From a virus (taxonomy: Duplodnaviria > Caudoviricetes), in IMG/VR virus record IMGVR_UViG_3300043485_000022, positions 1 through 60,147 of that record: a stretch of DNA of 60,147 bases. One strand, 5' to 3'. Positions within the stretch are counted from its first letter, which is position 1, and each line of letters begins with the position of its first letter. Made by a program: the position numbers and the translations under genes. Shown in pieces: positions 135 to 53,765 of this stretch. A model generated the notes under the pieces. That model was given only the letters and a program-made list of their open reading frames with translations, was not told the DNA's origin and searched no databases.

Positions 135-872
135 ATGACCATCATCAGACTTTCCGACCGCTCCGATCGTCAATCCAAGTCCGGAATCGTTTCATCCAAG
201 ATCAAATCTACTAAAAGCAAGTCTGGTGGTGTGACTCCTATCTTCAAGGCTCTGTCAACAAACGACTTTGAGAAGATATCAATCCCGGACATGATGGACG
301 AACTAAGTCGCAACTCACATCTCTACTACATCGATAAGAAAGATCCACAAGCTGATTGGGTTTCAATTCGCAACCTACCCGACACAATCACCAACCTCAC
401 ATCTTCGCTGAAACCTAAACTTAACACAGAACGTCCACCTGGAGTTAGAACATGTCTTTGTTTGTTCTTGACACATGGACTTGAGATCTTGTCTGCAAAC
501 GAGTCTATTCAACTGATGATCCAGGTGAGAGACAAGTTATTCAACCACACTTTGCTTGGGACTGCTCAGGAGTCTTATGTCATGCAGGTTGTCAAGACCT
601 CTGTTCAGATGACAAAAGAAAGTGGACATCGTGTGAACGTGCCAGCTACAGAATGGGTTTCTAATACTGTTGCGAGGTTGAGCAAAGATCTCGGGATAGA
701 CGCAAACCTGATCGCTGTGATGGCGATGTATGCCTACTTGACAACCCAACATGACTACTGTCCGGATAGTTACGTTGATCTGTGGAGTGGATTGTTAGAT
801 GATTTTCTGTTGACAATCGAGATGAAATCAAAGGGGGTTGATATGATGATGAAGGTGATCTATGGATCATAG
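135..872 (+). CDS. Hypothetical protein (245 aa), basic N-terminus; possible DNA-binding or replication protein
   Basis: Long ORF with TTGACA at 82-87 upstream; close to the putative origin; no motif recognised. Confidence 0.6.
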   Translation: MTIIRLSDRSDRQSKSGIVSSKIKSTKSKSGGVTPIFKALSTNDFEKISIPDMMDELSRNSHLYYIDKKDPQADWVSIRNLPDTITNLTSSLKPKLNTERPPGVRTCLCLFLTHGLEILSANESIQLMIQVRDKLFNHTLLGTAQESYVMQVVKTSVQMTKESGHRVNVPATEWVSNTVARLSKDLGIDANLIAVMAMYAYLTTQHDYCPDSYVDLWSGLLDDFLLTIEMKSKGVDMMMKVIYGS

Positions 873-1206: not shown

Positions 1207-1488
1207 CGAAACCGGACCCCCAGGCTAATCTATTCGCTATCGATCAGATTATCTGCATTGAATCTTGGGGGTCCGCGAATGTGAAAGTGGACCCCCGAGT
1301 CGACAATTCTCCAAAAATATTGGTCGGGGGTCCCGGGGGGCAGGGTGGACCCCCGGGACCCCCATACGCCTTTAAGCGTAAGTTAGACGAAAAGGGGGCG
1401 TATGGGGGTCCCGGGGGTCCTACCGGTTTATATATATATAAAGAGGGTGGATTTTCTTGGGGGTCCGCTTTTTGAGACTCGGACCCCC
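1192..1488. repeat. Palindromic iteron-like array, putative replication origin
   Basis: 11 copies of GGGGGTCC/GGACCCCC, a perfect 24-bp inverted repeat (1347-1370 vs 1397-1420) and a (TA)n tract at about 1428-1441. Confidence 0.7.
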
Positions 1489-1514
1489 ATGTCTAGCTGG
1501 GCTGCATAATTCAT

Positions 1515-1959
1515 GTGACTATTCTTAGACCTTTCCGCCTGGGGATCGTCGGACACGCTGCCGACAAGTTCACGAGCGAGACTGAAGATCGGGCTAAGCG
1601 GGAGATGAAGCGCGTCATCACAGACATCTATAACCCTGACGTTGTGGTGAGTGGCGGTTGTCATCTAGGCGGGATTGATGTCTGGGCAGTTGAGATTGCG
1701 GCTGGACTAGGGATTAGAACAGAGGTCTTATCTACCTGAGAATAGATCGTGGTCAAGCGGGTACAGAGAACGGAACTTGAAGATAGCGGCGAGATCAACG
1801 GTGGTGGTGTGCGTGGTTGTGGGTGATTATCCGCCATCGTATCGTGGACGAAGGTTTGACCGCTGCTATCATTGTCGAGACAGGAATCCGCCTCATCTCA
1901 AATCCGGCGGATGTTGGACGGCGTGGAGATGTAAGAGACACGAGTGGATTATCATCTGA
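1515..1959 (+). pseudogene. SLOG-superfamily (YspA/DUF2493-like) protein split by a 1-nt frameshift near 1728
   Basis: VVVSGGCHLGGIDVWA motif. Removing one T in GAGGTCTTATCTA joins the frame to YLPENRSWSSGYRERNLKIA, the expected continuation of this family. Confidence 0.6.
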
Positions 1960-2213: not shown

Positions 2214-2466
2214 CTTGAGACGAAAAGAGACAAGAAAGGACATATTCCCAATGAACGACGATCATCAGCACGCTCTAGACGAGATCTCGGGTGATATCGA
2301 TCGTGCGACTCATCCCGATAATATGAGTCAAGAAGAAGCTCTAGAGTTCTTGGAAGAGCTTCAATCAAACATCGAGGCTTCTATTGCTGGTCTCAAAGAT
2401 GACATGCAGAGCTAGTCATTACACCTCTCATTAAGACAAGACAAAGAAACAAAGAGGATTCACCTG

Positions 2467-5058
2467 ATGAACCAGCAAGACAGCGACAAGATCAAGTCCA
2501 TCATCACAGAGCTGCGGGATTTGGTTTCAGAGACAACCCGAGCTGTCATTCTCAAGTTGGATGATTGCCGGACTACAGTCGAGACCAAGCTCGCAAGCCT
2601 GTCAGAACTCAGCCAGCATGTAGACCCGCCTGCGCCCCCTATACAACCTCCTGTCACGCCTCCGGTTCAGCCCCCGAGTCAACCCCCGAGCACTCCGCCA
2701 ATCAGCCCGCCAACGTTAGAAGTCCTCACGCGACTCACAGCCGTCGAGTGCTCTAGTGTCAGTCGACAAGCAATGCTGATCTCAAGTGGAGTTCCGATTG
2801 CTCAGTCAGTAGGGCTGAAGGATGTTAGCAGGCTTGTGATCAACAGCGCTGACGGAGTGTTTGTTGAGTCGGATGTCAGACCAACCGCGTGGTGGTCTGA
2901 CGGAAGTATTCAATGGGTGCAGGTTGAGCTTCTGGACTCGATTGAAAGCGGAAAGCAGAAGAACTACAACCTCGTTCTCAGTAAGACCGCATCGGTTTCA
3001 ACCATCAATCCTCTGTCTTATATTATCAATAGCAGTCCAATCGGAAAGAACGCAGTTGTAGACACAGGCTCAGCGGTGTTCACGATTGGCGCCGAGGGTC
3101 TCATCCGCTCTATCAAGACTCGTGACGGTCTGACTCTGACAGGCTCAGCGACATCATTCGCGTTTGACGGGAAAACAGACACCTTCTCAGACACACAGGT
3201 CCGTCGAATGGAGTTCGAGTACATCGGACCGCTTGTCTGCTATCTCGTGGTAGAGACGATATCAAAGTCATTCACCACGGCTGCAACGGTTAAGGAGTTT
3301 GGACGGATCTCAACCACCCGCCGCTATCGGTTCGTCAAAGGCTCCTCTCTAGCAACTGTCACGTCTGTCATCAAGTGGGAAGGCAGCAAGAACGGGACAG
3401 AAGCGATGATGTCAGACGGGAAGACTGTTAATGGTGTGCTGGGAACAAGCTGGTTTGACACAATCAAGATTGATCCGTCTCTGCTCGATAATCCCTCACT
3501 CTTTCATCTGGACCAACCGCTGAGATCTAATCGAAAGCAGTCAAGAGTCCTCAAGACAGAGGGCGCGTCCATATCTCTGCCTCTCAAAGACAAGAAGAAT
3601 ATGATCATTATGGGATTGAGACGAATGGACTTGTACGAGCCTCAATCTCTGTCACAATCACAAGGCGAGTTGAGGATCTATCACGCGTCAGATAAGTTTT
3701 GGCTTGCGCACCATCAAGGTGCATCGACAACCTGTCTTATAGGCGTTTGTGGTGTCAATCAATCTGATGCTAATCTGCTTGCTGATCTCAACCACCCAGT
3801 GAGACTGTTTGCTGATCCAAGTTATTATCAGGTTGCTGGCAAGTCTGTCCCCTTCTCTAGCAACTCTCTGGGCTCTCAGTACGTTGCTGCTTTGACTCAG
3901 ATCTGCAACAAGACTCTTTCGCTAATCGCCCGTGATGGTCTCTACGGGCTACAAACCTACGCTTGGTGGCCGCGCTACTGGGATGACAACGAGATTGAGA
4001 TGAGTGACAAAGAAGCTAACTGGGACACGCTCTACAAGACAGGCGCTTTCACTGACTATTACAGCACGAGCAGATCAGCCGCCACTCTCTCGCTGATGAC
4101 GCAGAACTCTCTCTGGCTGGACAATCTCGCTCACCCCTCAGCTCTGCGGATGTTGTGGACGCAGATCATGCACACGAGTCCTGAGGACAATTGGGTGTAT
4201 GGCAACTGGGCGTCAGCGGGCTATGGTTGTGGCAGATCAGATTTCAACTCCTCACACTCGTACTACGAGAACCTGTTCTGGTACTACCTGCTGACAGGTA
4301 ACAGGTTGGTGGTTGACATTCTCGCTCGGGGTGAAGAGCGAATGATCAACGAGGTCAAGTCGCAGCCACTTGCAGGACGGTTCCCGCATCAACGATTGCG
4401 CGCCTGGAGGTTCCTGTCGCAAGTTCATGGAGATCCTGTCAAGCGGAAGCTGTTCCGCGACGCTTGGATATCAAGCATGCAACGCGCGATCAACGAATGC
4501 TATGTCGAGGGAACATACAACGGAGAGCCTGCTGCATTCTGGACTGACGGTGTGAAGAAGGCAGGTACCATCGCCACTCCAAACCTCTACGCACTATCTA
4601 TCTGGGATCTCGAAAGCCTCTGGGAGTACGGCAAAGAAATTCCCTTTGTTTCAGGACCAACTAATTCGCAATCTCATCCGTGGAATATTCTGATCAAGGT
4701 TGTGTCAACCATTCAACGTTACGGATCGTTTATCGTTGGTGGTGACTCCACTCTCGCCAAATCCTCCAAGTGGGCACGTGCCTTCTCATTTACCTGGGAC
4801 GATGCCAACAAGATTATCAACCTCAAAGTCCAGCCCGATAGCGAGAACGTCTCAACCATGTACCCTGGTGACTTGCCTGGAATGTGCGCGAGTTGGGCAC
4901 GTGCGGCTGTGATCAGCGGAGATCCTGCGATGAAGCAGAAGGCACAGGAGTTGATCACCTACACACTCAGCTTGATCAAGGAAGGGGGCCAGCCCATGAA
5001 CAAGTTGTCTGGACTGGCCGATAGTACACTGGCGGATGCGATTACGTCTTTGATCTAG
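2467..5058 (+). CDS. Large YetA/PcRGLX-like protein (RIFT barrel plus alpha/alpha toroid), putative polysaccharide lyase or depolymerase
   Basis: SGVP..G.....L......WWSDGSIQWV N-terminal pattern, Trp/Tyr-rich helical C-terminal half, N-terminal coiled coil and Pro-rich linker. Confidence 0.55.
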   Translation: MNQQDSDKIKSIITELRDLVSETTRAVILKLDDCRTTVETKLASLSELSQHVDPPAPPIQPPVTPPVQPPSQPPSTPPISPPTLEVLTRLTAVECSSVSRQAMLISSGVPIAQSVGLKDVSRLVINSADGVFVESDVRPTAWWSDGSIQWVQVELLDSIESGKQKNYNLVLSKTASVSTINPLSYIINSSPIGKNAVVDTGSAVFTIGAEGLIRSIKTRDGLTLTGSATSFAFDGKTDTFSDTQVRRMEFEYIGPLVCYLVVETISKSFTTAATVKEFGRISTTRRYRFVKGSSLATVTSVIKWEGSKNGTEAMMSDGKTVNGVLGTSWFDTIKIDPSLLDNPSLFHLDQPLRSNRKQSRVLKTEGASISLPLKDKKNMIIMGLRRMDLYEPQSLSQSQGELRIYHASDKFWLAHHQGASTTCLIGVCGVNQSDANLLADLNHPVRLFADPSYYQVAGKSVPFSSNSLGSQYVAALTQICNKTLSLIARDGLYGLQTYAWWPRYWDDNEIEMSDKEANWDTLYKTGAFTDYYSTSRSAATLSLMTQNSLWLDNLAHPSALRMLWTQIMHTSPEDNWVYGNWASAGYGCGRSDFNSSHSYYENLFWYYLLTGNRLVVDILARGEERMINEVKSQPLAGRFPHQRLRAWRFLSQVHGDPVKRKLFRDAWISSMQRAINECYVEGTYNGEPAAFWTDGVKKAGTIATPNLYALSIWDLESLWEYGKEIPFVSGPTNSQSHPWNILIKVVSTIQRYGSFIVGGDSTLAKSSKWARAFSFTWDDANKIINLKVQPDSENVSTMYPGDLPGMCASWARAAVISGDPAMKQKAQELITYTLSLIKEGGQPMNKLSGLADSTLADAITSLI

Positions 5059-5267
5059 TTATAGTAGGGACCGCAGCATCCCGGTCCACCTGTTGCACAC
5101 GAGCCATAAGCGGTATTGGAAAACCCAGTGCCGCAGGTCTCTGTGGGGTAACAAGCTTGTGCATAGCATGTATCGGTTGTGCCCAAAGGTGGATCGGGCT
5201 TACCTCCATTCAGGTAACGAAGTGTTTCACGATTGAGAGAAAGACGTCTGATCTGCGTTTTCTTCAC
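5055..5267 (-). CDS. RiPP (lanthipeptide-like) precursor peptide 1
   Basis: Leader MKKTQIRRLSLNRETLRYLNGG; core has 6 Cys and 10 Ser/Thr; AGGAGG SD before GTG; own promoter. Confidence 0.75.
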   Translation of the reverse strand: MKKTQIRRLSLNRETLRYLNGGKPDPPLGTTDTCYAQACYPTETCGTGFSNTAYGSCATGGPGCCGPYYN

Positions 5268-5291
5268 TAAGTCCTCCTTTTTGATGTTCAG

Positions 5292-5321
5292 ATTCTACAA
5301 CGTACGGACCGGACGCGTCAA
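5292..5321 (-). promoter_or_regulatory. sigma70 promoter for precursor 1, operator in spacer
   Basis: Minus strand TTGACG-N18-TAGAAT; spacer holds GTACGGACCGGAC (5302-5314 on +). Confidence 0.75.
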
Positions 5322-5407
5322 GTGGTTCTGTGAAGATCGCAGAAGTTTTACAACTCGTCACCTAGAGAAGACAAGATGTAAAATGTTTGCTGCAAGACAG
5401 ATTTGTG

Positions 5408-5436
5408 TTGACACGACGTACGGACCGTACTATAGT
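5408..5436 (+). promoter_or_regulatory. Near-consensus sigma70 promoter with palindromic operator, probably leaderless
   Basis: TTGACA-N17-TATAGT; spacer holds GTACGGACCGTAC; ATG at 5444 lies 7 nt after the -10. Confidence 0.85.
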
Positions 5437-5443
5437 CCTCTAC

Positions 5444-5719
5444 ATGGTTACCAACAAGCACTTCGCCACCTGCACTGACGGCAGCATCATCTCTTTGAAG
5501 AACGTCTACACGCGCGAACTAGGGCGTACTGCTGAGGGCAAGATCATTGCCGGTGTAGGTGGCGACTGTGGTACCTGCGGCGGTGTTCACAAGGTCGAGC
5601 GCACGATTCAACGCAAGGCCAATCCTTCCAACCATAAGTGCTCTGACCGCTGCCGTTCCGCCAAGGGACATCAGTGCGAGTGTGAGTGCGGCGGCAAGTA
5701 TCATGGACACAACGCGTGA
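5444..5719 (+). CDS. Small Cys/His-rich Zn-binding early protein
   Basis: CGTC and CSDRC...CECECGGKYHG; directly behind the promoter. Confidence 0.7.
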   Translation: MVTNKHFATCTDGSIISLKNVYTRELGRTAEGKIIAGVGGDCGTCGGVHKVERTIQRKANPSNHKCSDRCRSAKGHQCECECGGKYHGHNA

Positions 5720-5940
5720 TGAACAAAGTAAACCGTTATCGGCTAACACACCGTGAGACCGGTCAGTATCTAGCCACCAAGAGCGCGAATAGTGTTGAAG
5801 AAGCAATTAGTTCTTTGCTTCAAGAGCGAGGATACGACTACTATAATTCGTCCGTAATTGATGCAGAGCTGTTAGGCCCAATAGACACGACCGATTGGAA
5901 GGGTAAGCGTAAGATAGTTGTAAAATCTTGAGACGGTGTG

Positions 5941-5969
5941 TTGACGTACGGACCGGACAGGAGTAGAGT
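5941..5969 (+). promoter_or_regulatory. sigma70 promoter with operator
   Basis: TTGACG-N17-TAGAGT; GTACGGACCGGAC at 5946-5958. Confidence 0.8.
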
Positions 5970-6005
5970 ACGGACAATGGACACCACGAGACAAGGAGAG
6001 TAGAG

Positions 6006-7748: not shown

Positions 7749-8105
7749 ATGAAATGGCAAGACGGAAACGGAAATTGGAGGGAATATCCAGCATCAGAAG
7801 CCTCACAAGACAGGTCTCGTCCAGCAATAACTGGCAATGGGGCAAGACAAGCTGTGTGCAAGTGCGGTCAGCCGTGTCTACTCGGGTCCAGCAAGTGCCA
7901 CGACTGTCAGCACGAAGCAATGTTCAAGCCTCCACCTGATGTTCTGGAGAAAGGGGAGAAGTTTCGGCGGATCTGCTCGTCGTGTCGAGGACGAGGGTAC
8001 TTTACAGGACTAGCAAGCGATGTGGTCAGCACTAAATCCCCTCTTGTTGGTCGAGTGGACTGTGTCCGTTGCAATGGGAGCGGCTATGTCCTGACGATCG
8101 GATAG
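7749..8105 (+). CDS. Zn-finger protein with DnaJ-type CxxCxGxG repeats
   Basis: CSSCRGRG and CVRCNGSG. Confidence 0.6.
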   Translation: MKWQDGNGNWREYPASEASQDRSRPAITGNGARQAVCKCGQPCLLGSSKCHDCQHEAMFKPPPDVLEKGEKFRRICSSCRGRGYFTGLASDVVSTKSPLVGRVDCVRCNGSGYVLTIG

Positions 8106-8122
8106 ACTATAATCCAGCGTCT

Positions 8123-9637
8123 ATGGCTGTTCTAGACGCCAAGAGGCAAGACCCCTCCGTAGCACTCCCGCCTGCACCTGTCTCTCTAGACAGCCCTGCC
8201 GAGGCTCTATCCGTCAGCTTCACCTCCCTTGAAGACGACATCCGCAGGTCGGTCTATCAGCGCAACCCGGCTCTCTGGGCGAGGAAGAAGCTCAAGGCTC
8301 ACCTCTGGAGCCTACAGACCAAGATCATCGAATCTGTACGAGACAACCGCCGTACAGCCGTCAAGTCGTGCCATTCTGCCGGGAAATCGCACGTAGCAGC
8401 TATTCTGGCGGCTTGGTGGATCGAGTCTCACAAGCCCGGTGAAGCTTTTGTTATCACCTCTGCGCCGACAGCTCCACAAGTCCGAGCAATCCTGTGGCGC
8501 TATATCAACCGTCTACACGCGAGCGGCGGGCTCTCAGGTCGGTTGAACCAAACCGAGTGGTGGGCCAAGATGCCTGAAGGTCACGAGGAGATGGTTGCGT
8601 TTGGGCGGAAGCCTGCCGATATGGACGTTGCAGCGTTCCAGGGGATTCATGCTAAGTACGTGCTGGTGATTTTTGATGAAGGTGCGGGTATCCACAAGGA
8701 TCTGTTTGATCAAGCGGACTCGTTGATCTCTAATGAGTTCAGCCGAATGATCGTGATCGGCAACCCTGATGATCCTCAATCTCACTTCGCAACTGTTTGC
8801 AAGCCCGGGTCAGGTTGGAATGTCATCAAGATCTCAGCGTTTGACACGCCCAACTTCACAGGCGAACCAATTCCCGACTATCTGCGGCATGTGCTCGTCA
8901 GTCCCGTGTGGGTTGAGGAGAAGAAGAAGTCTTGGGGCGAAACAAACCCGCTCTACATAGCTAAGATCCTGGGTGAGTTCCCAGAACTATCTACAGATGG
9001 GCTGATTCCTATCTCGTGGATCAAAGCCGCGCAGGAGAGAACGATACAACCCAGCTTGCCAATTGAGCTGGGGGTTGATGTTGGTGGTGGTCGAGACAAG
9101 AGTGTCATTGCTGTTCGCAAGGGTGGATGGGTGCGGATACTCAAGCACCGCAAGACTCAAACACCCAACACAATGACAACACTGGGGAATGTTATTCTGG
9201 CTTTGAGAGAAGAAGACGCCTCTAAAGTCAAGATAGACGATATTGGAATCGGTCGTGGTGTGAAAGACAGGGCTGAAGAGATGGCTTCGGATCAGTCCTC
9301 TAGCGATGATGAACGGCGTGAAGCAAGCTTGATAGAAGGCGTGAACGTAGGCAGATCTGCTGTTGACACGAAGCAGTTTGTCAACCTTCGTGCTGAGGGC
9401 TACTGGAAACTACGTCAGATGTTCGAATCAGGACAGACTGACATTGATCCTGATGACGATGACCTTGCAGCTCAACTCGTGGACTTGAAGTGGAAAGCAA
9501 TCGGCGGTCGTATCCAGATCGAGAGTAAGGAAGAGATCCGCAAGCGCGGCAAGAACTCGCCTGATGATGCTGATGCTGTCATGCTGGTGTTTATAGATCC
9601 GCCTGAGAAAGAGAAAGTCCACACGCTAGGATGGTAA
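8123..9637 (+). CDS. terL: Terminase large subunit
   Basis: Walker A variant SCHSAGKS, Walker B VIFDEG, coupling motif IGNP, nuclease motifs LGVDVG and SPDDADA. Confidence 0.95.
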   Translation: MAVLDAKRQDPSVALPPAPVSLDSPAEALSVSFTSLEDDIRRSVYQRNPALWARKKLKAHLWSLQTKIIESVRDNRRTAVKSCHSAGKSHVAAILAAWWIESHKPGEAFVITSAPTAPQVRAILWRYINRLHASGGLSGRLNQTEWWAKMPEGHEEMVAFGRKPADMDVAAFQGIHAKYVLVIFDEGAGIHKDLFDQADSLISNEFSRMIVIGNPDDPQSHFATVCKPGSGWNVIKISAFDTPNFTGEPIPDYLRHVLVSPVWVEEKKKSWGETNPLYIAKILGEFPELSTDGLIPISWIKAAQERTIQPSLPIELGVDVGGGRDKSVIAVRKGGWVRILKHRKTQTPNTMTTLGNVILALREEDASKVKIDDIGIGRGVKDRAEEMASDQSSSDDERREASLIEGVNVGRSAVDTKQFVNLRAEGYWKLRQMFESGQTDIDPDDDDLAAQLVDLKWKAIGGRIQIESKEEIRKRGKNSPDDADAVMLVFIDPPEKEKVHTLGW

Positions 9638-9653: not shown

Positions 9654-9866
9654 ATGACAAAGAAAGAAGCAACTCGAATTCTGATTACACATGCGGCTCG
9701 TTCTGTTTCTGGAACTGGCGCAGGATTGAGATCGTCAACTCAAGAATACGAGAAGAATCAAGTTAGAGAAGCTATTATCAAATTGTGGTCGGACGGCAAG
9801 TACGGTTATGGTCCGACTGAATCATATCTTTTCAATCTCGGTCTTGCAGGACTTAACACTATATAA
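9654..9866 (+). CDS. Small hypothetical protein between terL and portal
   Basis: GAGGAG SD and GACAAGAC directly before the ATG. Confidence 0.55.
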   Translation: MTKKEATRILITHAARSVSGTGAGLRSSTQEYEKNQVREAIIKLWSDGKYGYGPTESYLFNLGLAGLNTI

Positions 9867-9930
9867 CACCTCTCGTTCGTTGATATTACTCTCTGCTCAT
9901 GTTATACCTGTGAGTGGGAGACCGTCTATC

Positions 9931-11328
9931 TTGAGCCCGCATAACACGCCCACCAACGGCTCGCCCCAACTGGTCTCATCCCTCAGCGCGGCTGTCTCAC
10001 GGCTCATGTTTGCCTCCGAGCACGGCTTCGACTCATTCGACGGCAACCGGGATCTCTACAAGACCCTCGGATATAAGCAGAAGATCAGCTTGCAGGCGTA
10101 CCGTCAGCGGTACAAGCGCGGAGGAATTGCCAAGCGGATCGTCAACGCCATGCCGCGAGAGGCTTGGGCGGGTGGGGTTGACATCATCGAGAATGAAGAT
10201 GTTGAGGTCCACACGGAGTTTGAGCAGGACATCACGGCTCTGTTTGAAGATAACGATGTGATCACTCGAATGTTGCGGATTGACATCCTCGCAGGGCTTG
10301 GACAGTACGCGTTGGGGATCATCGGTGTTGATGACGGTCAGGAGCTTTCTGTCCCGCTCACGAAGCGAGTTGGACAGAAAGTGATCTATCTGACTCCGAT
10401 CATCCAAGAACGAGCGCGGATCAAGTCCTACGAAGAGAACAAATCTAGCAAGCGGTTTGGTCGTCCTCTGATCTATGGAGTGAACTTCAATCGCTCTAAG
10501 TCCTCTGGTGTCAAGGAGATGGAGGATGTTCATTGGACGCGAGTCCTGCACCATGTCCACAACCCTCTAGACGATGACATATTTGGAGACCCTGATCTAG
10601 AGGATGTCTATAATCTGTTTGATGATCTCTACAAGTTGATCGGTGGCGGATCTGAAGCTGCTTGGAAGCAGATGGTCAGCAAGACTCTGTTTGATATCGA
10701 CAAGGACGTCACGCTCGCAGGGACAGAACTAGAGAAGAAGCAGATTGTTGAGCAGAAAGAAGAAGAGCTAGAAGAGATGGTCAACGGTCTACGGCAGTTC
10801 ATGATGACTCGCGGGGTTACGCCCAAGACTTTCGGCGCGACCGTATACGACTTCTCCAGCAACGCTAATACGATCGTTCAGCACATCGCTGGCACCAAGG
10901 GGTTGCCCGTGCGGTACGTAATGGGCTCAGAGCGAGGTGAATTGGCGAGCGTTACCGACCGCGACATGATTAAGAATCGCGTGACGGAACACTGTAACGA
11001 TCATGCTATCCCGCTGGTGAGGCAGTTCGTGGACAGGATGATCGAATACGGTTTCGTGCGTCCGCCCGCTGCGAAGAAGTATAAGGTTGTCATGGGTGCG
11101 AGCATCAGCACCATGTCGGAGCAAGAGAAAGCTGATCTTGCCAACAAGCTCACAGAAGCGAATCTGAACCAGAAGCGAGCCGGGCAACCGCCGATCATGT
11201 CTGATAGTGAGATCCGTGACAAGGCCCATGGGTTGAAGCCTCTACCAGCAGCGAAGGTGGACACGATTCCAAATGCTGATCCTGTTGCCACGGCTGATCC
11301 TCCTGCCGCTGCTGGAGGTGGTGCGTGA
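9931..11328 (+). CDS. Portal protein (DUF1073-like)
   Basis: YKRGGIAKRIVNAMPREAW, VHWTRVLH and GSERGELAS motifs; follows terL. Start uncertain (ORF open from 9808). Confidence 0.88.
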   Translation: MSPHNTPTNGSPQLVSSLSAAVSRLMFASEHGFDSFDGNRDLYKTLGYKQKISLQAYRQRYKRGGIAKRIVNAMPREAWAGGVDIIENEDVEVHTEFEQDITALFEDNDVITRMLRIDILAGLGQYALGIIGVDDGQELSVPLTKRVGQKVIYLTPIIQERARIKSYEENKSSKRFGRPLIYGVNFNRSKSSGVKEMEDVHWTRVLHHVHNPLDDDIFGDPDLEDVYNLFDDLYKLIGGGSEAAWKQMVSKTLFDIDKDVTLAGTELEKKQIVEQKEEELEEMVNGLRQFMMTRGVTPKTFGATVYDFSSNANTIVQHIAGTKGLPVRYVMGSERGELASVTDRDMIKNRVTEHCNDHAIPLVRQFVDRMIEYGFVRPPAAKKYKVVMGASISTMSEQEKADLANKLTEANLNQKRAGQPPIMSDSEIRDKAHGLKPLPAAKVDTIPNADPVATADPPAAAGGGA

Positions 11329-31164: not shown

Positions 31165-31614
31165 TTATTTTGCAGTGCAGGCGGTGGACTGACGAGTGAA
31201 CAGCGCATCCAACGGGAGCTGCAATCCACCCGTGGCGTTCTGCATGTAACCCCAGCCCCATACACACCGTCCCACATAGCCGGGCTGACACTGAACACCA
31301 GAGGTCGTGGGCGAGTCTCCGCCGGTCGTGCCGTAGGACGGACAATCGACCAGCGTAGCCGTGTCGAGACACAGGTTGTGCAGAGCCGTGGATGCGAGGG
31401 GACAATCCACCTTGATGATCTGTGATCCACGATCATCCGTCCTGATACTGAGCGTAATGCGAGTGATGGTGTTGCTTGAATTGCGGGTCACTTCCTGACT
31501 CACCACATTGCCAACGATCTCGTAGTAGTTGTAGTCGGCAGCCGAGGCAAGCGAGGCGAAGAGGAGACAGACTGTGACGGCGAGCAGCACGGATGTGAAG
31601 AGGTTCTTTTTCAT
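31165..31614 (-). CDS. Secreted Cys-rich protein (moron)
   Basis: Sec signal MKKNLFTSVLLAVTVCLLFASLASA; 6 Cys in mature part; AGGA SD. Confidence 0.75.
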   Translation of the reverse strand: MKKNLFTSVLLAVTVCLLFASLASAADYNYYEIVGNVVSQEVTRNSSNTITRITLSIRTDDRGSQIIKVDCPLASTALHNLCLDTATLVDCPSYGTTGGDSPTTSGVQCQPGYVGRCVWGWGYMQNATGGLQLPLDALFTRQSTACTAK

Positions 31615-31642
31615 GTTCCTTTCCTTTCTTTTGGGTTCGGAT

Positions 31643-32209
31643 TTAGTTGCAGCCGGTTCCGTGTTGGATGAGATCGATTCTTCCGATGAGTCCTGCGCTC
31701 ATCAAGCACTCAGCAGTGGCGGGGTTTTGGCAAGCCCATTGGTAGGTGGTTGAAGTTTCGCCCCACGGAAGGGTCTGATTCACCGTTACGCAGGACTTGC
31801 TACAAGATCCCAGAATGTAGGTAATAGCACTTTTCATATTCGCGTTCAAGCTAGACCACGAACAAGAGTTGATCGTGGCGAGAGCGACACAAGTAGAGTC
31901 CAGAGAGCCGTTGCAACTTGCCGACTCAGACTGCAATGAGAGGTTCGTGCTGGAGTTGTAGATCGTCAGAGTCGTCGTGACGGTAGAACCCGAGGTCGTG
32001 ACAGTGGCTCCGTAGACATTAGCTGCGCTGCTCGTGTACACGTCTTGGTAGAGAGTGGTGTTGATGTCGCCGAACTGACGCCGCTCCGTGGTGACTTGAT
32101 TGGTACGACCTAGGCGTAGAGAGGGAGATTGATCAGCGTGAGCAGGGGAAGATGAAGAGAGAGTTGAACTGAAAAGAAGAACGAGAAGTAGAACGATCTT
32201 TCGTGCCAT
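31643..32209 (-). CDS. Secreted Cys/Ser/Thr-rich protein (moron)
   Basis: Sec signal ending AHA; 8 Cys; GAGG SD. Confidence 0.75.
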   Translation of the reverse strand: MARKIVLLLVLLFSSTLSSSSPAHADQSPSLRLGRTNQVTTERRQFGDINTTLYQDVYTSSAANVYGATVTTSGSTVTTTLTIYNSSTNLSLQSESASCNGSLDSTCVALATINSCSWSSLNANMKSAITYILGSCSKSCVTVNQTLPWGETSTTYQWACQNPATAECLMSAGLIGRIDLIQHGTGCN

Positions 32210-32291
32210 GTCTTGACCTCTATCTGGAGAGGTAAGAGGCTTGATTGCCTCTGAGAAAGTAAGACACCAATCTTTGTGCTACGGGTTAAAG

Positions 32292-32321
32292 ACTCTAGTC
32301 AACTCCTTTGGCTCAGGTCAA
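32292..32321 (-). promoter_or_regulatory. sigma70 promoter for the secreted-protein pair
   Basis: Minus strand TTGACC-N18-TAGAGT; AGATTTCTCTTGAC is shared with 32667-32680. Confidence 0.7.
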
Positions 32322-32356
32322 GAGAAATCTCAGCGCTCGGCGTAAAAGATCAGCAG

Positions 32357-32389
32357 TCCACTCTCTTTGTGGTCGGCAAAGAGAGTGGA
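32357..32389 (-). terminator. Hairpin directly after precursor 2 (terminator or stabiliser)
   Basis: Perfect 13-bp stem TCCACTCTCTTTG/CAAAGAGAGTGGA. Confidence 0.6.
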
Positions 32390-32398
32390 TGAAGCGTT

Positions 32399-32593
32399 TT
32401 AGTACAAAGGCGGGATGCAGGGCAGCAATACAGTGTCGCCCTCTCCACCTCCTGTCCCTTGCCGAGGGCGGGGATTGCAGGGGCACGTCACATGCGAAAA
32501 CTCGATGTTGGGAGGATTGGGCGGATCTTCACCTCCACGCAGACTGCGCAATGTCTCAGACGTCAGAGCCAACTTTCGCAATTTCTTCTTCAT
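32399..32593 (-). CDS. RiPP (lanthipeptide-like) precursor peptide 2
   Basis: Leader MKKKLRKLALTSETLRSLRGG aligns with precursor 1; core has 3 Cys and 4 Ser/Thr; AAGGA SD. Confidence 0.72.
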   Translation of the reverse strand: MKKKLRKLALTSETLRSLRGGEDPPNPPNIEFSHVTCPCNPRPRQGTGGGEGDTVLLPCIPPLY

Positions 32594-32751
32594 TGTGCGT
32601 TTCCTTTGATCTCGAAATTGGAGCTTCAGTGCTCCATAAAAATCATCTTACAGAACTCTTGTGAGAGTCAAGAGAAATCTTCGTCCTCTAACGATGAGGC
32701 CCTGTTCTGTCCTCTGGGGTGTGCTAAACTCCTCCCCAGGTCTACTCTCCC

Positions 32752-37243: not shown

Positions 37244-37550
37244 GAGGTTTTACAACTTGTTTACATCTAGAGTCTTGACCGGACCGTATCAAGACTGACA
37301 CACTGTTTCACATCATGGTTAAGATCTTCACTGTCTGGCAAAGATACCGACGCAGGATCGCCCCTGGTGAATGGGACATCGACTCCGGCAAGACTCATGC
37401 TGTCATTGGCGGTAGGACACTCTGCGGACGCAATCCAGGCAGCATTGAGAAAGGATGGGAACTTGATCCTTATCGTCCCCCCGTCGAGTGTGAGAAGTGC
37501 CGTGCAGCACTGGCCAAACTGTGATGGGGAGGTTTTACAACTTGTTTACA
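37244..37550 (+). repeat. 22-bp direct repeat GAGGTTTTACAACTTGTTTACA (37244-37265, 37529-37550)
   Basis: Exact copies, each 9 nt upstream of a -35-like hexamer (TTGACC 37275, TTGCGT 37560). Confidence 0.85.
37315..37524 (+). CDS. Small Zn-binding early protein
   Basis: H...LCG...CEKC; flanked by the direct repeats. Confidence 0.65.
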   Translation: MVKIFTVWQRYRRRIAPGEWDIDSGKTHAVIGGRTLCGRNPGSIEKGWELDPYRPPVECEKCRAALAKL

Positions 37551-46417: not shown

Positions 46418-46563
46418 GCTGACAGGTCAAATCGTATGCTGGACGTAAAGGGAGGCCGCGTAAGAGCCTCCCCTGTCTACCCTCGCTCCTTCTCCCCTGT
46501 CGTCCTCCACTGTCCTGTTCTGACGGCAAGTTGTAAAATCTTTGGTCGATCTCGATTTTGTTC

Positions 46564-46592
46564 TTGACTCGGTACGGACCGTACTGTAGTCT
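46564..46592 (+). promoter_or_regulatory. sigma70 promoter with operator, probably leaderless
   Basis: TTGACT-N17-TAGTCT; GTACGGACCGTAC at 46572-46584; ATG at 46599. Confidence 0.78.
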
Positions 46593-46598
46593 TCTCAC

Positions 46599-46838
46599 AT
46601 GGCAACCGAGACCGCAACCTTCGTTCCCGAATACCGTTATCGGATCAAGTCCACTGGCTACTCCTCAACTCGCTACGGCAACTGCGAAGTCTGTAAGCAG
46701 CCTGTCTCGGAAGTCTTTCTCCAGAGCGAACAGAGATCGTATGAAGGTGGATCGAGTTGGACGTATGAAGGATGTAACACGTCTCTCTTCGACCATGAGG
46801 ATTGTCTGCTTTCTGTCCGGAGAGGACAGCAGTCATGA
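46599..46838 (+). CDS. Small Zn-binding early protein
   Basis: CEVC...H..C. Confidence 0.65.
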   Translation: MATETATFVPEYRYRIKSTGYSSTRYGNCEVCKQPVSEVFLQSEQRSYEGGSSWTYEGCNTSLFDHEDCLLSVRRGQQS

Positions 46839-50956: not shown

Positions 50957-53617
50957 ATGTCTGTCATTGTTCCTGGCTTTGGACGGACTCCCAATCGCGT
51001 CCTCCTCTGCGGAGAAGCCCCAGGCCGCACCGAGTTCGAACGTGGCAGACCCTTTTCCGGAAAATCTGGTGAAGAGCAGAAATGGTATCTATCACCTTAC
51101 AGAATAAACCCTGATCACTGGTACATGACAAACGTTGTCAAGCTCTATTTGGAGGGAAACCCAGATCCCACCCCTGAGCTGATTTCGGAGTGGACCCCGG
51201 AGTTGATCCGCGAAGTCCACGCTTGCAACCCTCAGCTCATCATCGCTGTTGGCAGATTTGCTATCCAATGGTTTCTAGGCGATCGTGCTGACTTGGATTC
51301 TTGCCATAACATCCCTCACAAGCCTGGAGCGTTTGACCTGTCTCGCGCAAGTCGCTCTCCACAAAACTCGATCATTCTGCCGATCTATCACCCAGCGGCG
51401 GGGTTCTATAAAGCCAAAGTACGGCCCTTGATCCAAGAAGATTACCGAGTCGTAGCGAGCACTGTTAAGAAGCTCCAAGCGGGCGAGCAGATCGAGTTCC
51501 GCCATGACCCCTACGCCGGGCAGGAAGACTATCGTGACGTGACAGGCCGTCAACTCGAATCAGCAATCAGGTCTGCCAAGCCTGCCGACCTACGATACAT
51601 CGGCCTCGACACAGAAGGCTACCCCAAGCGAGGCATGCACTGGTCAACACAGGTCTCGTGGCAGCCCGGGGTAGCTTACGTCCTCAGAACCTCCCAGCCC
51701 GACCTCCAGCGTGGTATAGCAGCCCTCCAGAGGCTCGCAGACACCAGCCGCACGACATTCATCACCCACGACGCCTCCACCCCTTCAGGCTGCCTCTACG
51801 ACCTCACCATGTCCAGTGTCGTCGGGCTGAACTACTCGCGTGCTCCTCTCTACAACACCATGTACGCCGCTTACCTAACTCGCCTAGAGCCTAAGGGCCT
51901 CAAACCCCTCTGCTGGCGGTTCAACGGCATGTACATGGAAGACTACCACTCGCTCATTGGAGACGTGGCTAGGCAGAAGCAGCTTGATTATCTGATCGAA
52001 GTCTCGTGTCGAACGTGGCCTAAAGCAGAACCTCGCCTTGAGCATAACAATGACGGCAGTAGCAAGCTGAAGACTTACCAGCACATCACCAAAGCTGTCA
52101 ACAAGCTTATCGTAGACATCGTAACAGGCAAGGAGACTAAAGACGGTCCCACGAATCCCTTGAAGCGCTGGAGAGACCTCGACCCGCTACAGGTCAAGCA
52201 CGTAGAGTCGGTCATGGGCCGGATGCCGATTGCAACATTGGATGATGTTCCGTTGGATCAAGCTATCATCTATGCTGCTCGTGATAGCGACGGGACTAGA
52301 AGATTGATGTTCCAACTAGACGAACGGCTCAAATCTCTCGACCTCCAGCACCGCATGCCCGATGACATGCAAGTCGCTCCTATCTTCTGGGAGATGCAGC
52401 AGAACGGTATGACTGCTGATCGACAAATGTTCTTCGACCTAGGCGAAAGCATGTCCGAGCAGATGTACGCCATCGGAGCAAGACTGTCACATGAGTTCTT
52501 CAGCTCACGGCGGTTCAACCCAGGCTCACCCAAGCAGGTTCAAGTCCTATTGAAGCGCCGTGGCTTGAGAGCTTCGAAGCAGACTGACACGGGAGACGAA
52601 TCAACCGCTAAGAAGTCTATCGAACATTTGAGATTTTTAGACCCCGCGATCGGTCTGGTGTTTGATTGGCGGGAACGTCAGCACATCCGCGATTCGTTCT
52701 GCAAACCCATCCTCAGCATCATCCCTGGAGATCAGAGATTTTGGAATGTCCGCTCTAATCTACGCATCGCTGATACAGAGACTCGCAGACTATCAAGCTC
52801 AGCCCCTAATCTGCTCAACATACCCGTGCGTACAGACATCGGCCGGGCTGTGCGATCGTGCTACCGGCTTGCTGAAGACTCAGGACAAGTCTTGTACGCC
52901 GCTGACTTATCACAGATTGAACTCCGAATATTGGCCGATGAAAGCAACAGCAAGTTTCTCATTGGCGAATTCCTCAAGCCCAAGTCAGACCCGCACAAGC
53001 AAATCGCCATGCGCGTCTTCGGCATAGCTCGCGAAGAGGACGTAGACGAGTTCAAGCACCGCCTCCCTGCCAAGACAACCATCTATGGCATCTCTTATGG
53101 TCAACAGGATCAGGGGTTATCAGACCAGCTTCGCATGCTCGGGCTTGACAACTGGGACGTAAGAGCCTGCGGAGAACTCCGCCGAGAGATCTTGTCTATC
53201 ATCGGCATCAATGACTACAAGGAAAGGTTGATCTCCAGCGCTCGCTCGCGTGGATACATCCGCGACCGTGGCGGGATGTACCGCTACCTGCCAGACTTGC
53301 GGTCCCACGATCGTAAACTCTCAGCAGAGGCAGAGCGGCATGTCGTCTCCAGTCGCATCCAAGGCACAGCCCAAACCGCTATTCAGAACTCCATGCGACA
53401 CTTGCGCCCGTCCATCCAAACCCTGTCAGACAGTGGACATGACATCAAGTGGCGGTTGCAAGTGCACGATGAGCTGATCTTGACCTGTCCGCGAGAAGAC
53501 GTAGAGATTGTAGACTACCTGTGCCTCGACGCGATGACGAACCACCACGGATTGAAGTTGAAGATTCCGATTGTCGCCAAGGGACACACAGCAACCACTT
53601 GGGGAGAACTGAAATGA
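50957..53617 (+). CDS. polA: Family A DNA polymerase with N-terminal uracil-DNA-glycosylase-like domain and 3'-5' exonuclease
   Basis: UDG: GEAPG, PFSG.SG, TNVVK, YHPAA. Exonuclease: LDTE, YAARD. Polymerase: DLSQIELR, AKTTIYGISYG, VHDEL. Confidence 0.95.
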   Translation: MSVIVPGFGRTPNRVLLCGEAPGRTEFERGRPFSGKSGEEQKWYLSPYRINPDHWYMTNVVKLYLEGNPDPTPELISEWTPELIREVHACNPQLIIAVGRFAIQWFLGDRADLDSCHNIPHKPGAFDLSRASRSPQNSIILPIYHPAAGFYKAKVRPLIQEDYRVVASTVKKLQAGEQIEFRHDPYAGQEDYRDVTGRQLESAIRSAKPADLRYIGLDTEGYPKRGMHWSTQVSWQPGVAYVLRTSQPDLQRGIAALQRLADTSRTTFITHDASTPSGCLYDLTMSSVVGLNYSRAPLYNTMYAAYLTRLEPKGLKPLCWRFNGMYMEDYHSLIGDVARQKQLDYLIEVSCRTWPKAEPRLEHNNDGSSKLKTYQHITKAVNKLIVDIVTGKETKDGPTNPLKRWRDLDPLQVKHVESVMGRMPIATLDDVPLDQAIIYAARDSDGTRRLMFQLDERLKSLDLQHRMPDDMQVAPIFWEMQQNGMTADRQMFFDLGESMSEQMYAIGARLSHEFFSSRRFNPGSPKQVQVLLKRRGLRASKQTDTGDESTAKKSIEHLRFLDPAIGLVFDWRERQHIRDSFCKPILSIIPGDQRFWNVRSNLRIADTETRRLSSSAPNLLNIPVRTDIGRAVRSCYRLAEDSGQVLYAADLSQIELRILADESNSKFLIGEFLKPKSDPHKQIAMRVFGIAREEDVDEFKHRLPAKTTIYGISYGQQDQGLSDQLRMLGLDNWDVRACGELRREILSIIGINDYKERLISSARSRGYIRDRGGMYRYLPDLRSHDRKLSAEAERHVVSSRIQGTAQTAIQNSMRHLRPSIQTLSDSGHDIKWRLQVHDELILTCPREDVEIVDYLCLDAMTNHHGLKLKIPIVAKGHTATTWGELK

Positions 53618-53765
53618 TGACGATTTGGGATGCTCATCGGAAGCGTTGTACTTTTGATTATTGCTCTTATTCTTCAAGACTTCATGTTCAAGAAGAAGTG
53701 AGACAAGAACAGCGTCCACTTCTGGTGACGAGTTGTAAAACTTCTGTAAAACCCCTGCCGACCTG

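What the first reader, a model, noticed from the sequence alone, without database searches (positions are those of the whole stretch)
5055..5321. Phage-encoded orphan RiPP precursor 1, wired into the phage operator network
Seen: a 70-aa minus-strand ORF with leader MKKTQIRRLSLNRETLRYLN-GG and core KPDPPLGTTDTCYAQACYPTETCGTGFSNTAYGSCATGGPGCCGPYYN (6 Cys, 10 Ser/Thr), an AGGAGG SD, and a TTGACG-N18-TAGAAT promoter whose spacer carries the operator found at phage early promoters. Established: KKLxLx(K/R)ET-type leaders characterise a group of class I lanthipeptide precursors, and GG is a typical cleavage site. I recognise no LanB/C/M, radical SAM enzyme, peptidase or exporter in the window. Inference: the phage supplies only the substrate and borrows host maturation and export machinery to make a bacteriocin or signal, or uses it as a decoy that titrates host RiPP enzymes. 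From memory such leaders are common in Thermoanaerobaculia/Acidobacteriota, which is a host hint only.
Basis: partly seen in the sequence, partly recalled or inferred. Interest (0 to 1): 0.85.

Follow-up and report, generated by a model that had tools for sequence, protein, structure and literature searches.

The report
Orphan lanthipeptide-type precursor gene in phage
A soil phage with no integrase carries a real 70-codon gene (and a second one like it) for a cysteine-rich peptide whose front end matches the recognition leader of bacterial ring-forming (lanthipeptide) peptides, yet it has none of the enzymes that mature or export them, so the peptide probably uses, or interferes with, host machinery.

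Summary
Window 5055-5267(-) is a 70-codon GTG-start ORF with AGGAGG 5 nt upstream and a TTGACG-N18-TAGAAT promoter. A one-mismatch copy of the palindrome GTACGGACCGTAC lies in the spacer.

An HMM built only from bacterial peptides finds this ORF and a paralogue at 32399-32593(-) as the top two of 1433 window frames. Scores are 25.4 and 21.0 bits, and the next frame scores 8.2.

In the six bacterial genomes sampled, this leader family sits beside LanB/LanC: 13 of 96 copies lie within 2 kb. Both phage peptides score below the curated cut-offs of NF038153 and TIGR04149.

The phage record is 91% complete. It has no match to LanB, LanC, LanM, radical SAM, C39 peptidase, ABC transporter or integrase families.

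Not established:
- The host is not identified.
- No RNA data exist.
- None of 80 TerL-related phage loci carries such a peptide.
- Host-borrowing and decoy readings are untested.

This scan has noted the same phenomenon on other DNA (34 notes in at least 27 genomes). Five literature searches found no paper describing it.

The parts
5055..5267 (-). pep1 coding sequence: 70 codons plus stop, GTG start. It has an L1a-type leader (residues 1-22) and a Cys/Thr/Gly/Pro-rich remainder.
   Evidence: Best of six frames. Bacterial-only HMMs score it 37.1, 25.4 and 13.0 bits, and it is first or second of 1433 frames each time.
5273..5278 (-). Shine-Dalgarno AGGAGG, 5 nt before the GTG.
   Evidence: Read.
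5292..5321 (-). Sigma-70-like promoter TTGACG-N18-TAGAAT.
   Evidence: 10 of 12 matches.
5302..5314 (.). Operator-like 13-mer GTACGGACCGGAC in the promoter spacer, one mismatch from the palindrome found at 5418, 5946 and 46572.
5346..5355 (-). Upstream element AGTTGTAAAA, 24 nt before the -35. All four operator-bearing promoters share it.
5374..5436 (+). Divergent partner promoter: AGATGTAAAA, then TTGACA-N17-TATAGT with the perfect palindrome in the spacer, and an ATG 7 nt after the -10.
32399..32593 (-). pep2, a 64-codon paralogue (MKKKLRKLALTSETLRSLRGG-EDPPNPP...). It is the first gene of a minus-strand cassette with two Sec-signal Cys-rich proteins (31643-32209 and 31165-31614).
   Evidence: (E 9.3e-5 to pep1), (TIGR04149, 14.2 bits).

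Best explanation
pep1 is a real phage accessory gene (a 'moron'). It encodes a precursor-type peptide of the class I lanthipeptide family with LxLx(K/R)x5L...GG leaders. The phage makes only the substrate. After infection the peptide is transcribed from a promoter of the phage's own promoter class. Its leader is recognised in trans by a host LanB dehydratase and LanC cyclase, which install thioether rings in the Thr/Ser/Cys-rich part. The leader is removed at or after the double glycine. The product leaves the cell through a host double-glycine exporter or simply at lysis, and acts outside as a bacteriocin or signal.

Shown: the gene, its signals, its leader-family resemblance, the link of that family to LanB/LanC in bacteria, and the absence of such enzymes in the phage record.

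Inferred: every step from recognition by host enzymes onward.
For: Gene and signals.

Leader family, tested with profiles that contain no phage sequence, against 1433 window frames with all filters off:
- A 21-peptide HMM gives pep1 37.1 bits (E 2.4e-10) and pep2 22.1 bits (E 1.1e-5). The next frame scores 7.5.
- A 14-peptide HMM without the pattern-derived sequences gives 25.4 and 21.0 bits, next 8.2.
- A 5-peptide HMM of precursors adjacent to LanB/LanC gives pep2 19.3 and pep1 13.0 bits, next 7.1.

Curated libraries give the same direction at sub-threshold scores: NF038153 for pep1 (E 0.055), TIGR04149 for pep2 (E 0.031), and NF038153 for 6 of 12 members of alignment A4.

A full HMMER search of 1.84 billion proteins returned only two relatives, both leader-GG-Pro-rich-Cys/Thr peptides (E 3.7e-4 and 8.5e-4).

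Association with enzymes in bacteria:
- LanC and LanB are over cut-off in 6 of 6 genomes with true leader hits, against 0 of 14 control genomes.
- 13 of 96 leader-type ORFs lie within 2 kb of LanB/LanC. One sits between LanB and LanC at G004:C175.
- The other 83 of 96 are remote, so precursors acting in trans would be the norm in these genomes.

Published description of the leader type: PMC7268733 (passages).

Orphan status.

The core has 6 Cys and 10 Ser/Thr.
Against: - Both peptides fail the curated cut-offs of the two named families. A six-frame search of the record with NF038153 found no candidate at all.
- The phage peptides lack the second leader module (ELxxVxGG) present in most bacterial members. 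Recognition and cleavage may therefore differ.
- pep2 has only 3 Cys and 4 Ser/Thr.
- The host is unknown. TerL finds only matches of 35% identity or less in 301 genomes of the phylum richest in pattern hits.
- The family is patchy there (3 of 120). Those genomes are far richer in G+C than the phage.
- No integrase or resolvase was found. A lytic phage gains less obviously from an exported bacteriocin.
- The codon score of pep1 is low.
- None of 80 TerL-related phage loci has such a peptide, so there is no conservation evidence.
- No modification chemistry can be shown from sequence.
Confidence: 0.45

Rival explanations
1. Decoy or inhibitor. The peptide is not a product. It is a leader-bearing bait that occupies the host's LanB/LanC (or its double-glycine peptidase-exporter) during infection. 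This would block a host lanthipeptide pathway, for example an intracellular anti-phage lanthipeptide.
For: The phage has no integrase, and the promoter belongs to the phage's own promoter class. Expression during lytic growth is therefore likely. Class I lanthipeptide clusters with intracellular anti-phage activity ('lanthiphages') are described in bioRxiv 10.1101/2024.06.26.600839 (passages) and reviewed in PMC12360287 (passages). The phage leader is a shortened form of the bacterial one, which could bind without being processed normally. There are two different cores behind one leader type.
Against: The described lanthiphages are reported as restricted to Actinobacteria and are not said to use this leader. 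The cores keep the Cys/Ser/Thr make-up of substrates, which a pure bait would not need. No binding data exist.
Confidence: 0.2
2. Unmodified double-glycine-leader peptide. A host peptidase-containing ABC transporter cuts pep1 after G21-G22 and exports it. The peptide folds by disulfides (6 Cys) into a bacteriocin-like or receptor-blocking peptide, with no lanthionine chemistry.
For: With cleavage after G22, Leu falls at -12, -7 and -4. This resembles the classical double-glycine leader consensus (recalled, not from a call). The number of Cys is even. pep2 sits with two Sec-signal Cys-rich proteins in one cassette. An unrelated 67.7-kb phage has the same kind of cassette, which suggests an extracellular, disulfide-rich function.
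Against: Leader similarity is to the family found beside LanB/LanC, not to class II bacteriocin models. The only such NCBIfam hit was E 0.3 for 1 of 12 members. pep2 has an odd number of Cys (3).
Confidence: 0.15
3. Substrate of another RiPP pathway. The same leader type also fronts radical-SAM-modified Cys-rich peptides (TIGR04149), so the host enzyme could be an rSAM/SPASM maturase rather than LanB/LanC.
For: pep2's only curated hit is TIGR04149 (E 0.031; E 0.0068 in the six-frame search). PMC11118758 (passage) notes that Cys-rich precursors of this kind are classed ambiguously between rSAM-modified peptides and lanthipeptides.
Against: The hit is below cut-off (14.2 against 25 bits). pep1 does not hit that model. 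The bacterial relatives examined sit beside LanB/LanC. Proximity to rSAM genes was not examined in those genomes.
Confidence: 0.1
4. Not a functional gene: a chance ORF in a 385-bp gap between plus-strand genes.
For: The codon score is below the 5th percentile of real in-frame pieces. No orthologue was found in 5.8 billion clustered proteins by word search. No RNA data exist.
Against: It is the best of six frames. It has an SD and a promoter with two phage-specific motifs. It has a paralogue in the same genome. Independent bacterial profiles hit it with E values from 1e-6 to 1e-10, while the next frame has E of about 0.3.
Confidence: 0.05

Closest known systems
Class I lanthipeptide precursors (LanA) with LxLxKx5L...GG leaders: NCBIfam NF038153 lant_leader_L1a, and family I-17 with pinensin in Walker et al. 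2020, PMC7268733
   Same: N-terminal MKK, the L-x-L-x-(K/R)-E-T-L-R-x-L motif, a double glycine, and a Cys/Ser/Thr-rich C-terminal part. Profiles of bacterial members select the phage ORFs.
   Different: It scores below the curated cut-off. It is encoded by a phage with no LanB, LanC, protease or exporter. Its leader is shortened, lacks the ELxxVxGG module, and is followed by a Pro-rich stretch.
TIGR04149 GG_sam_targ_CFB, radical-SAM-modified RiPP precursors with a related leader
   Same: A related leader, a GG and a Cys-rich core. pep2 hits this model.
   Different: The hit is below cut-off. No radical SAM gene is in the record. pep1 does not hit the model.
Multi-precursor lanthipeptide systems in which many dispersed precursors serve few enzymes (prochlorosin-type; recalled, not from a call)
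   Same: In genomes G003 and G005 there are 36 and 44 leader-type ORFs, most of them far from any LanB/LanC. Supply of a precursor in trans is therefore plausible.
   Different: Here the extra precursor comes from a virus, not from the producer's chromosome.
Other phage-borne orphan lanthipeptide-type precursors: earlier notes of this scan, and IMG/VR records G307, G308 and G309 seen here
   Same: Short leader-type ORFs in phage contigs without Lan enzymes. G307 also has a minus-strand cassette that alternates such peptides with Sec-signal Cys-rich proteins.
   Different: The phages are unrelated: TerL finds no match in G307-G309. The cores are different, and the secreted proteins share no detectable similarity.
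'Lanthiphage' class I lanthipeptide clusters with anti-phage function (bioRxiv 10.1101/2024.06.26.600839)
   Same: They link class I lanthipeptide chemistry to phage-host conflict.
   Different: They are host-encoded complete clusters in Actinobacteria. Nothing connects them directly to this peptide.

Membership tests
NCBIfam NF038153 lant_leader_L1a (class I lanthipeptide leader) | HMM score at or above the curated cut-off of 22 bits | tested here: not met
   pep1 scores 13.6 bits, E 0.055. pep2 has no hit at E<=10. The six-frame search of the record found no candidate.
Class I LanA with LxLxKx5L...GG leader (Walker et al. 2020) | LxLxKx5L motif in the leader | tested here: met
   pep1 has L9-x-L11-x-R13-x5-L19, with R in place of K. 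pep2 has L8-x-L10-x-S12-x5-L18, with S in place of K. Both were read. The motif is as quoted.
Class I LanA with LxLxKx5L...GG leader (Walker et al. 2020) | Leader ends in Gly-Gly | tested here: inconclusive
   GG is present at 21-22 (pep1) and 20-21 (pep2). In most bacterial relatives, however, the terminal GG lies 8-10 residues further on, after ELxxVx. The true cleavage site is unknown.
Class I LanA with LxLxKx5L...GG leader (Walker et al. 2020) | Core with Cys plus Ser/Thr for (methyl)lanthionine rings | tested here: met
   pep1 has 6 Cys, 8 Thr and 2 Ser in 48 residues. pep2 has 3 Cys, 3 Thr and 1 Ser in 43.
Class I LanA with LxLxKx5L...GG leader (Walker et al. 2020) | Encoded in or served by a cluster with LanB and LanC | tested here: not met
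   No LANC_like, Lant_dehydr_N or Lant_dehydr_C match at E<=1 in the 91%-complete record. The host genome is unknown, so service in trans could not be tested.
Class I LanA with LxLxKx5L...GG leader (Walker et al. 2020) | Dehydration and thioether formation in the mature peptide | not testable with these tools
   This needs mass spectrometry of peptide made with host enzymes.
Profile of bacterial leader-type peptides from LanB/LanC-bearing genomes (built here) | Significant match to a profile that holds no phage sequence | tested here: met
   The 14-peptide HMM gives pep1 25.4 bits (E 1.1e-6) and pep2 21.0 bits (E 2.5e-5). The next of 1433 frames scores 8.2.
TIGR04149 GG_sam_targ_CFB (rSAM-modified RiPP) | HMM score at or above 25 bits, and a radical SAM maturase nearby | tested here: not met
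   pep2 scores 14.2 bits and 12.9 bits in six frames. pep1 has no hit. No Radical_SAM match is in the record.
Double-glycine-leader peptides exported by C39 peptidase-ABC transporters | GG preceded by hydrophobic residues at -4, -7 and -12, with a C39/ABC exporter available | tested here: inconclusive
   Leu is at -4, -7 and -12 relative to G22 (read; the consensus is recalled). No Peptidase_C39 or ABC_tran match is in the record. The host is unknown.

The most novel reading that the evidence does not exclude
Unrelated soil phages repeatedly acquire stand-alone lanthipeptide-type precursor genes and place them under phage promoters. They do this to reprogram or jam the host's promiscuous in-trans RiPP machinery during infection. 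This would be a viral 'substrate-only' strategy: either a counter-defence bait against RiPP-based immunity, or a way to turn the dying host into a factory for a phage-chosen peptide that lysis releases without any exporter.
Probability: 0.3. Interest if true: 0.8.

Novelty: new variant of a known kind. Interest (0 to 1): 0.6.

Why it matters
RiPP precursors are normally thought of as parts of bacterial biosynthetic clusters. A virus that brings only the substrate would be using, or sabotaging, a host biosynthetic pathway in a way not described in the papers I could search. It would also give a simple experimental handle: one small gene plus host LanB/LanC.

In the bacterial genomes examined, most precursors of this leader family lie far from any enzyme (83 of 96). 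Supply in trans is therefore plausible.

The same pattern recurs in unrelated phages, which argues for selection rather than accident. For this particular window the value is limited, because the host is unknown and no expression or chemistry data exist.

Tried and rejected
Searches for close relatives
- Word-index searches of 5.8 billion proteins with pep1 and with the pep1/pep2 alignment returned only the window's own protein.
- Pfam gave no hit for pep1.
- Atlas look-alikes scored 0.85-0.87, below the level at which they count. They included clusters with PF28317 Lant_leader_dom and are leads only.
- tblastn of pep1 and pep2 against 50,697 GenBank phage records gave only chance-level rows, E 0.3-10.

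Context of the nearest relatives
P0002 lies on an 856-bp contig and P0003 on a 6081-bp contig that I did not obtain.
- The metagenome scan with P0003 returned a different 7331-bp contig, L003. It has a leader-type ORF, no Lan enzyme-sized ORF that I recognised by eye, and three Sec-signal Cys-rich ORFs. I did not run family searches on L003.

Related phages
- TerL as a single query found nothing in IMG/VR.
- With an alignment of 16 TerL sequences, 262 relatives were found and 80 loci kept (1.05 Mb). None of the 80 holds a leader-type ORF at E<=0.1.

Pattern scans of IMG/VR
- The strict pattern gave 1 locus, and it holds a true leader peptide.
Only 2 of these have a clear leader peptide.

Host identification
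- It failed. There is no tRNA. TerL finds only 26-35% identity in 9 of 301 genomes of G003's phylum. The listing of cluster members gave no names.
- The leader family is patchy: 3 of 120 other genomes of G003's phylum and 0 of 120 of G002's phylum at E<=1e-5, with only 51 candidates scored per genome.

Other negative results
- Expression: no RNA holder is listed. Only two DNA runs of one soil sample hold the stretch.
- Terminator: none was found downstream of pep1. The hairpin at about 4990-5020 has z = -1.19. The pep1 stop overlaps the stop of the convergent 863-aa gene by 2 nt.
- The secreted cassette proteins have no Pfam, NCBIfam or BLAST relatives among the loci held.
- I considered a complex prediction of the leader with LanB and left it out as an enzyme-substrate case.
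- Supplementary files of papers were not opened. Walker et al.'s supplementary tables might list phage-borne precursors that I could not see.
Full report
What is there

The window is a whole IMG/VR virus record of 60,147 bp, estimated 91% complete, with 53% G+C. It has the following phage genes:
- a terminase large subunit (8069-9637);
- a portal (9808-11328);
- a long tail module;
- a family A DNA polymerase fused to a uracil-DNA glycosylase domain (50957-53617);
- helicases and nucleases.

No tRNA was found. There is no match to the tyrosine integrase or resolvase families, so the phage looks virulent, with the caveat that about 9% may be missing.

Almost all genes are on the plus strand. 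The finding lies in a 385-bp gap between the stop of an 863-aa PcRGLX-like protein (2467-5058; Pfam PF19501, 22.3 bits) and the next plus-strand gene.

The observation

The minus-strand ORF 5055-5267 is as described. It has a GTG start and 70 residues, with N-terminus VKKTQIRRLSLNRETLRYLNGG. The 48-residue remainder has 6 Cys, 8 Thr, 2 Ser, 8 Gly and 6 Pro.

AGGAGG sits 5 nt before the start. The consensus scan finds TTGACG-N18-TAGAAT at 5321-5292.

The spacer carries GTACGGACCGGAC. This is one mismatch from the palindrome GTACGGACCGTAC, which is perfect at 5418 and 46572 and has one mismatch at 5946. All of these copies also lie inside sigma-70-like promoter spacers (0 of 100 shuffles reach the observed count).

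I found a second shared element. AGWTGTAAAA occurs 7 times in the window against 0.08 expected. Four of the seven copies lie 15-28 nt upstream of the -35 of exactly these four promoters.

So the pep1 promoter belongs to a phage-specific promoter class, and it forms a back-to-back pair with the plus-strand promoter at 5408-5436. The three plus-strand members have an ATG 6-9 nt after the -10, so they look leaderless. pep1 has a 24-nt leader with a strong SD. Nothing shows whether this promoter class is early.

The ORF's frame has the best codon score of the six frames, though the score is low for a gene of this phage. That fits a foreign, compositionally odd peptide gene.

Is the leader really of the lanthipeptide type?

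Curated libraries point that way, but below threshold:
- NF038153 lant_leader_L1a: 13.6 bits against a cut-off of 22 for pep1.
- TIGR04149: 14.2 bits against 25 for a paralogue, pep2, at 32399-32593(-).

I therefore built an independent test.

Step 1. A degenerate DNA pattern for [RK][RK]LxLxxETLRx[LIM]xGG was scanned over one genome of each of 185,579 species. It gave 25 loci. Seven of them are short MKK-initiated ORFs with Cys-rich tails. The other 18 are chance matches inside long frames. Six of the seven are in Acidobacteriota MAGs, three of them labelled Thermoanaerobaculia. The pattern fixes one Arg codon as CGN, so it favours G+C-rich genomes.

Step 2. All six genomes carry LanB and LanC over the Pfam cut-offs. 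None of 14 control genomes does at that threshold.

Step 3. A profile of 12 leader peptides finds 96 such ORFs in the six genomes, 36 and 44 of them in two genomes. Thirteen of the 96 lie within 2 kb of a LanB or LanC match. Examples are an ORF between LanB and LanC on G004:C175, and two ORFs between two LanB genes on G006:C28.

Step 4. HMMs built only from bacterial peptides were run with all filters off against all 1433 stop-to-stop frames of the window. pep1 and pep2 come first and second every time:

| HMM | pep1 | pep2 | next frame |
|---|---|---|---|
| 21 peptides | 37.1 bits | 22.1 bits | 7.5 bits |
| 14 peptides, none derived from the pattern scan | 25.4 bits | 21.0 bits | 8.2 bits |
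| 5 peptides adjacent to LanB/LanC | 13.0 bits | 19.3 bits | 7.1 bits |

The leader resemblance is therefore real and specific. It links the phage ORFs to a family that Walker et al. 2020 describe as class I LanAs with an LxLxKx5L motif, a terminal GG and frequent C39 proteases (PMC7268733, passages read).

How the phage peptides differ

Most bacterial members continue after ETLRxL with about ten more leader residues, xxxELxxVxGG. The phage peptides have GG directly after ETLRxLx, followed by a Pro-rich stretch (KPDPPLG in pep1, EDPPNPP in pep2).

A full HMMER search of 1.84 billion proteins found only two relatives, P0002 and P0003 (E 3.7e-4 and 8.5e-4). Both share this short-leader, Pro-rich form.

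The position of leader cleavage is therefore open. With cleavage after G22, Leu falls at -4, -7 and -12. This resembles the classical double-glycine consensus, which I recall rather than tested.

Orphan status

Six-frame searches of the record at E<=1 found no LanC, LanB N- or C-domain, LanM dehydratase domain, radical SAM, C39 peptidase or ABC ATPase. For two of these families (Lant_dehydr_C and DUF4135) the control genomes were silent too, so those blanks are weaker.

Context in other phages

- Cultured phages in GenBank have no relative.
- None of 80 IMG/VR loci around TerL relatives (45-57% identity, 1.05 Mb) has a leader-type ORF. pep1 is thus a lineage-specific accessory gene, not a conserved module.
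- Unrelated IMG/VR phages do carry such genes. These are G309 (61.7 kb, terminal repeats, 66% G+C), G308 (a fragment) and G307 (67.7 kb, complete, 54% G+C).
- G307 has a minus-strand cassette that alternates two leader peptides with two Sec-signal Cys-rich proteins. This is the same design as window 31165-32593, where pep2 precedes two Sec-signal Cys-rich proteins. There is no detectable sequence similarity between the secreted proteins.
- Earlier notes of this scan report the same phenomenon on other DNA: 34 notes in at least 27 genomes. I treat those as leads, not evidence.

Literature

Five searches found no paper describing phage-encoded stand-alone lanthipeptide-type precursors.

PMC11118758 studies host RiPPs against phages and removes viral contigs from its RiPP set (passages). 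The lanthiphage preprint shows that host class I lanthipeptides can act inside the cell against phages (passages). PMC12360287 reviews this (passages).

For PMC11953309 I saw only the search listing. Supplements were not available.

Host and expression

The host was not identified. The stretch is held only by DNA runs of one soil sample, and no RNA holder is listed.

However, the scan was biased. The family is present in only 3 of 120 other sampled genomes of that phylum. The hit genomes are 64-70% G+C against 53% for the phage.

Verdict

The gene is real with high probability. Its leader belongs, at sub-threshold strength, to the LxLx(K/R)x5L class I lanthipeptide leader family. The phage lacks all maturation and export enzymes.

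The most likely mechanism is that host LanB/LanC modify the peptide in trans and that it is released by a host exporter or at lysis (0.45). Rival readings:
- a bait that jams host RiPP or export machinery (0.2);
- an unmodified, disulfide-folded double-glycine peptide (0.15);
- a substrate of a radical SAM pathway (0.1);
- a spurious ORF (0.05).

It is a new variant of a known kind. It is interesting because it recurs in unrelated phages and appears undescribed in the searched literature. For this window it is not testable further without a host.

Noticed in passing
window 31165-32680 (-): A minus-strand cassette sits between plus-strand tail genes. It holds pep2 (32399-32593), a 188-aa Sec-signal Cys-rich protein (31643-32209) and a 149-aa one (31165-31614). 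AGATTTCTCTTGAC is repeated before pep2 and before the 188-aa gene. None of the three has a Pfam or NCBIfam family above cut-off.
   Followed up: partly
L174/L175 (IMG/VR record G307, about 31.0-32.6 kb of a 67.7-kb complete phage): An unrelated phage has an analogous minus-strand cassette: leader peptide (73 aa), Sec-signal Cys-rich protein (118 aa), leader peptide (72 aa), then Sec-signal Cys-rich protein (282 aa). There is no BLAST similarity to the window's secreted proteins.
   Followed up: partly
window 5346-5355, 5374-5383, 5916-5925, 37248-37257, 37533-37542, 46529-46538, 53731-53740: AGWTGTAAAA occurs 7 times against 0.08 expected. Four copies precede the operator-bearing promoters. 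The three others (37248 and 37533 on the minus strand, 53731 on the plus strand) were not examined.
   Followed up: partly
window 5431-5446, 5964-5980, about 46585-46600: In the three plus-strand operator-bearing promoters an ATG follows the -10 hexamer by 6-9 nt. This suggests leaderless mRNAs. pep1 instead has a leader with AGGAGG.
   Followed up: no
genomes G003 and G005 (handles from L018 and L022/L028): These two Acidobacteriota MAGs hold 36 and 44 leader-type ORFs scattered over many contigs. G005 has 11 LanC-like matches but only one LanB match. This is a large precursor expansion, with several stand-alone LanC genes directly beside precursors.
   Followed up: partly
L003 (metagenome contig, 7331 bp), 311-838(-), 1253-1636(+), 2295-2453(+), 5146-5589(+): A G+C-rich contig has a leader-type ORF (MKKNVKKLQLNRETL...) flanked by three small Sec-signal Cys-rich ORFs, with no Lan-sized enzyme gene seen by eye. 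This is the same peptide-plus-secreted-protein neighbourhood as in the phage cassettes.
   Followed up: no
window 50957-53617 (+): An 886-aa protein combines an N-terminal UDG-superfamily domain (residues 6-150) with a 3'-5' exonuclease region and a family A DNA polymerase.
   Followed up: no
window 8069-9637 (+): The terminase belongs to a very large uncultured clade. 4590 proteins match at E<=1e-30 among 8000 scored candidates, many on 45-73 kb contigs, and there are 262 relatives in IMG/VR. The best cultured matches are only 39-48% identical: a faecal phage, a Microcystis phage and Arthrobacter phages.
   Followed up: partly
window 5055-5058: The stop codons of pep1 (minus strand) and of the convergent 863-aa PcRGLX-like gene (plus strand) overlap in the palindrome CTAG. 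No terminator-like site follows pep1, so its transcript would run antisense into the 863-aa gene.
   Followed up: partly
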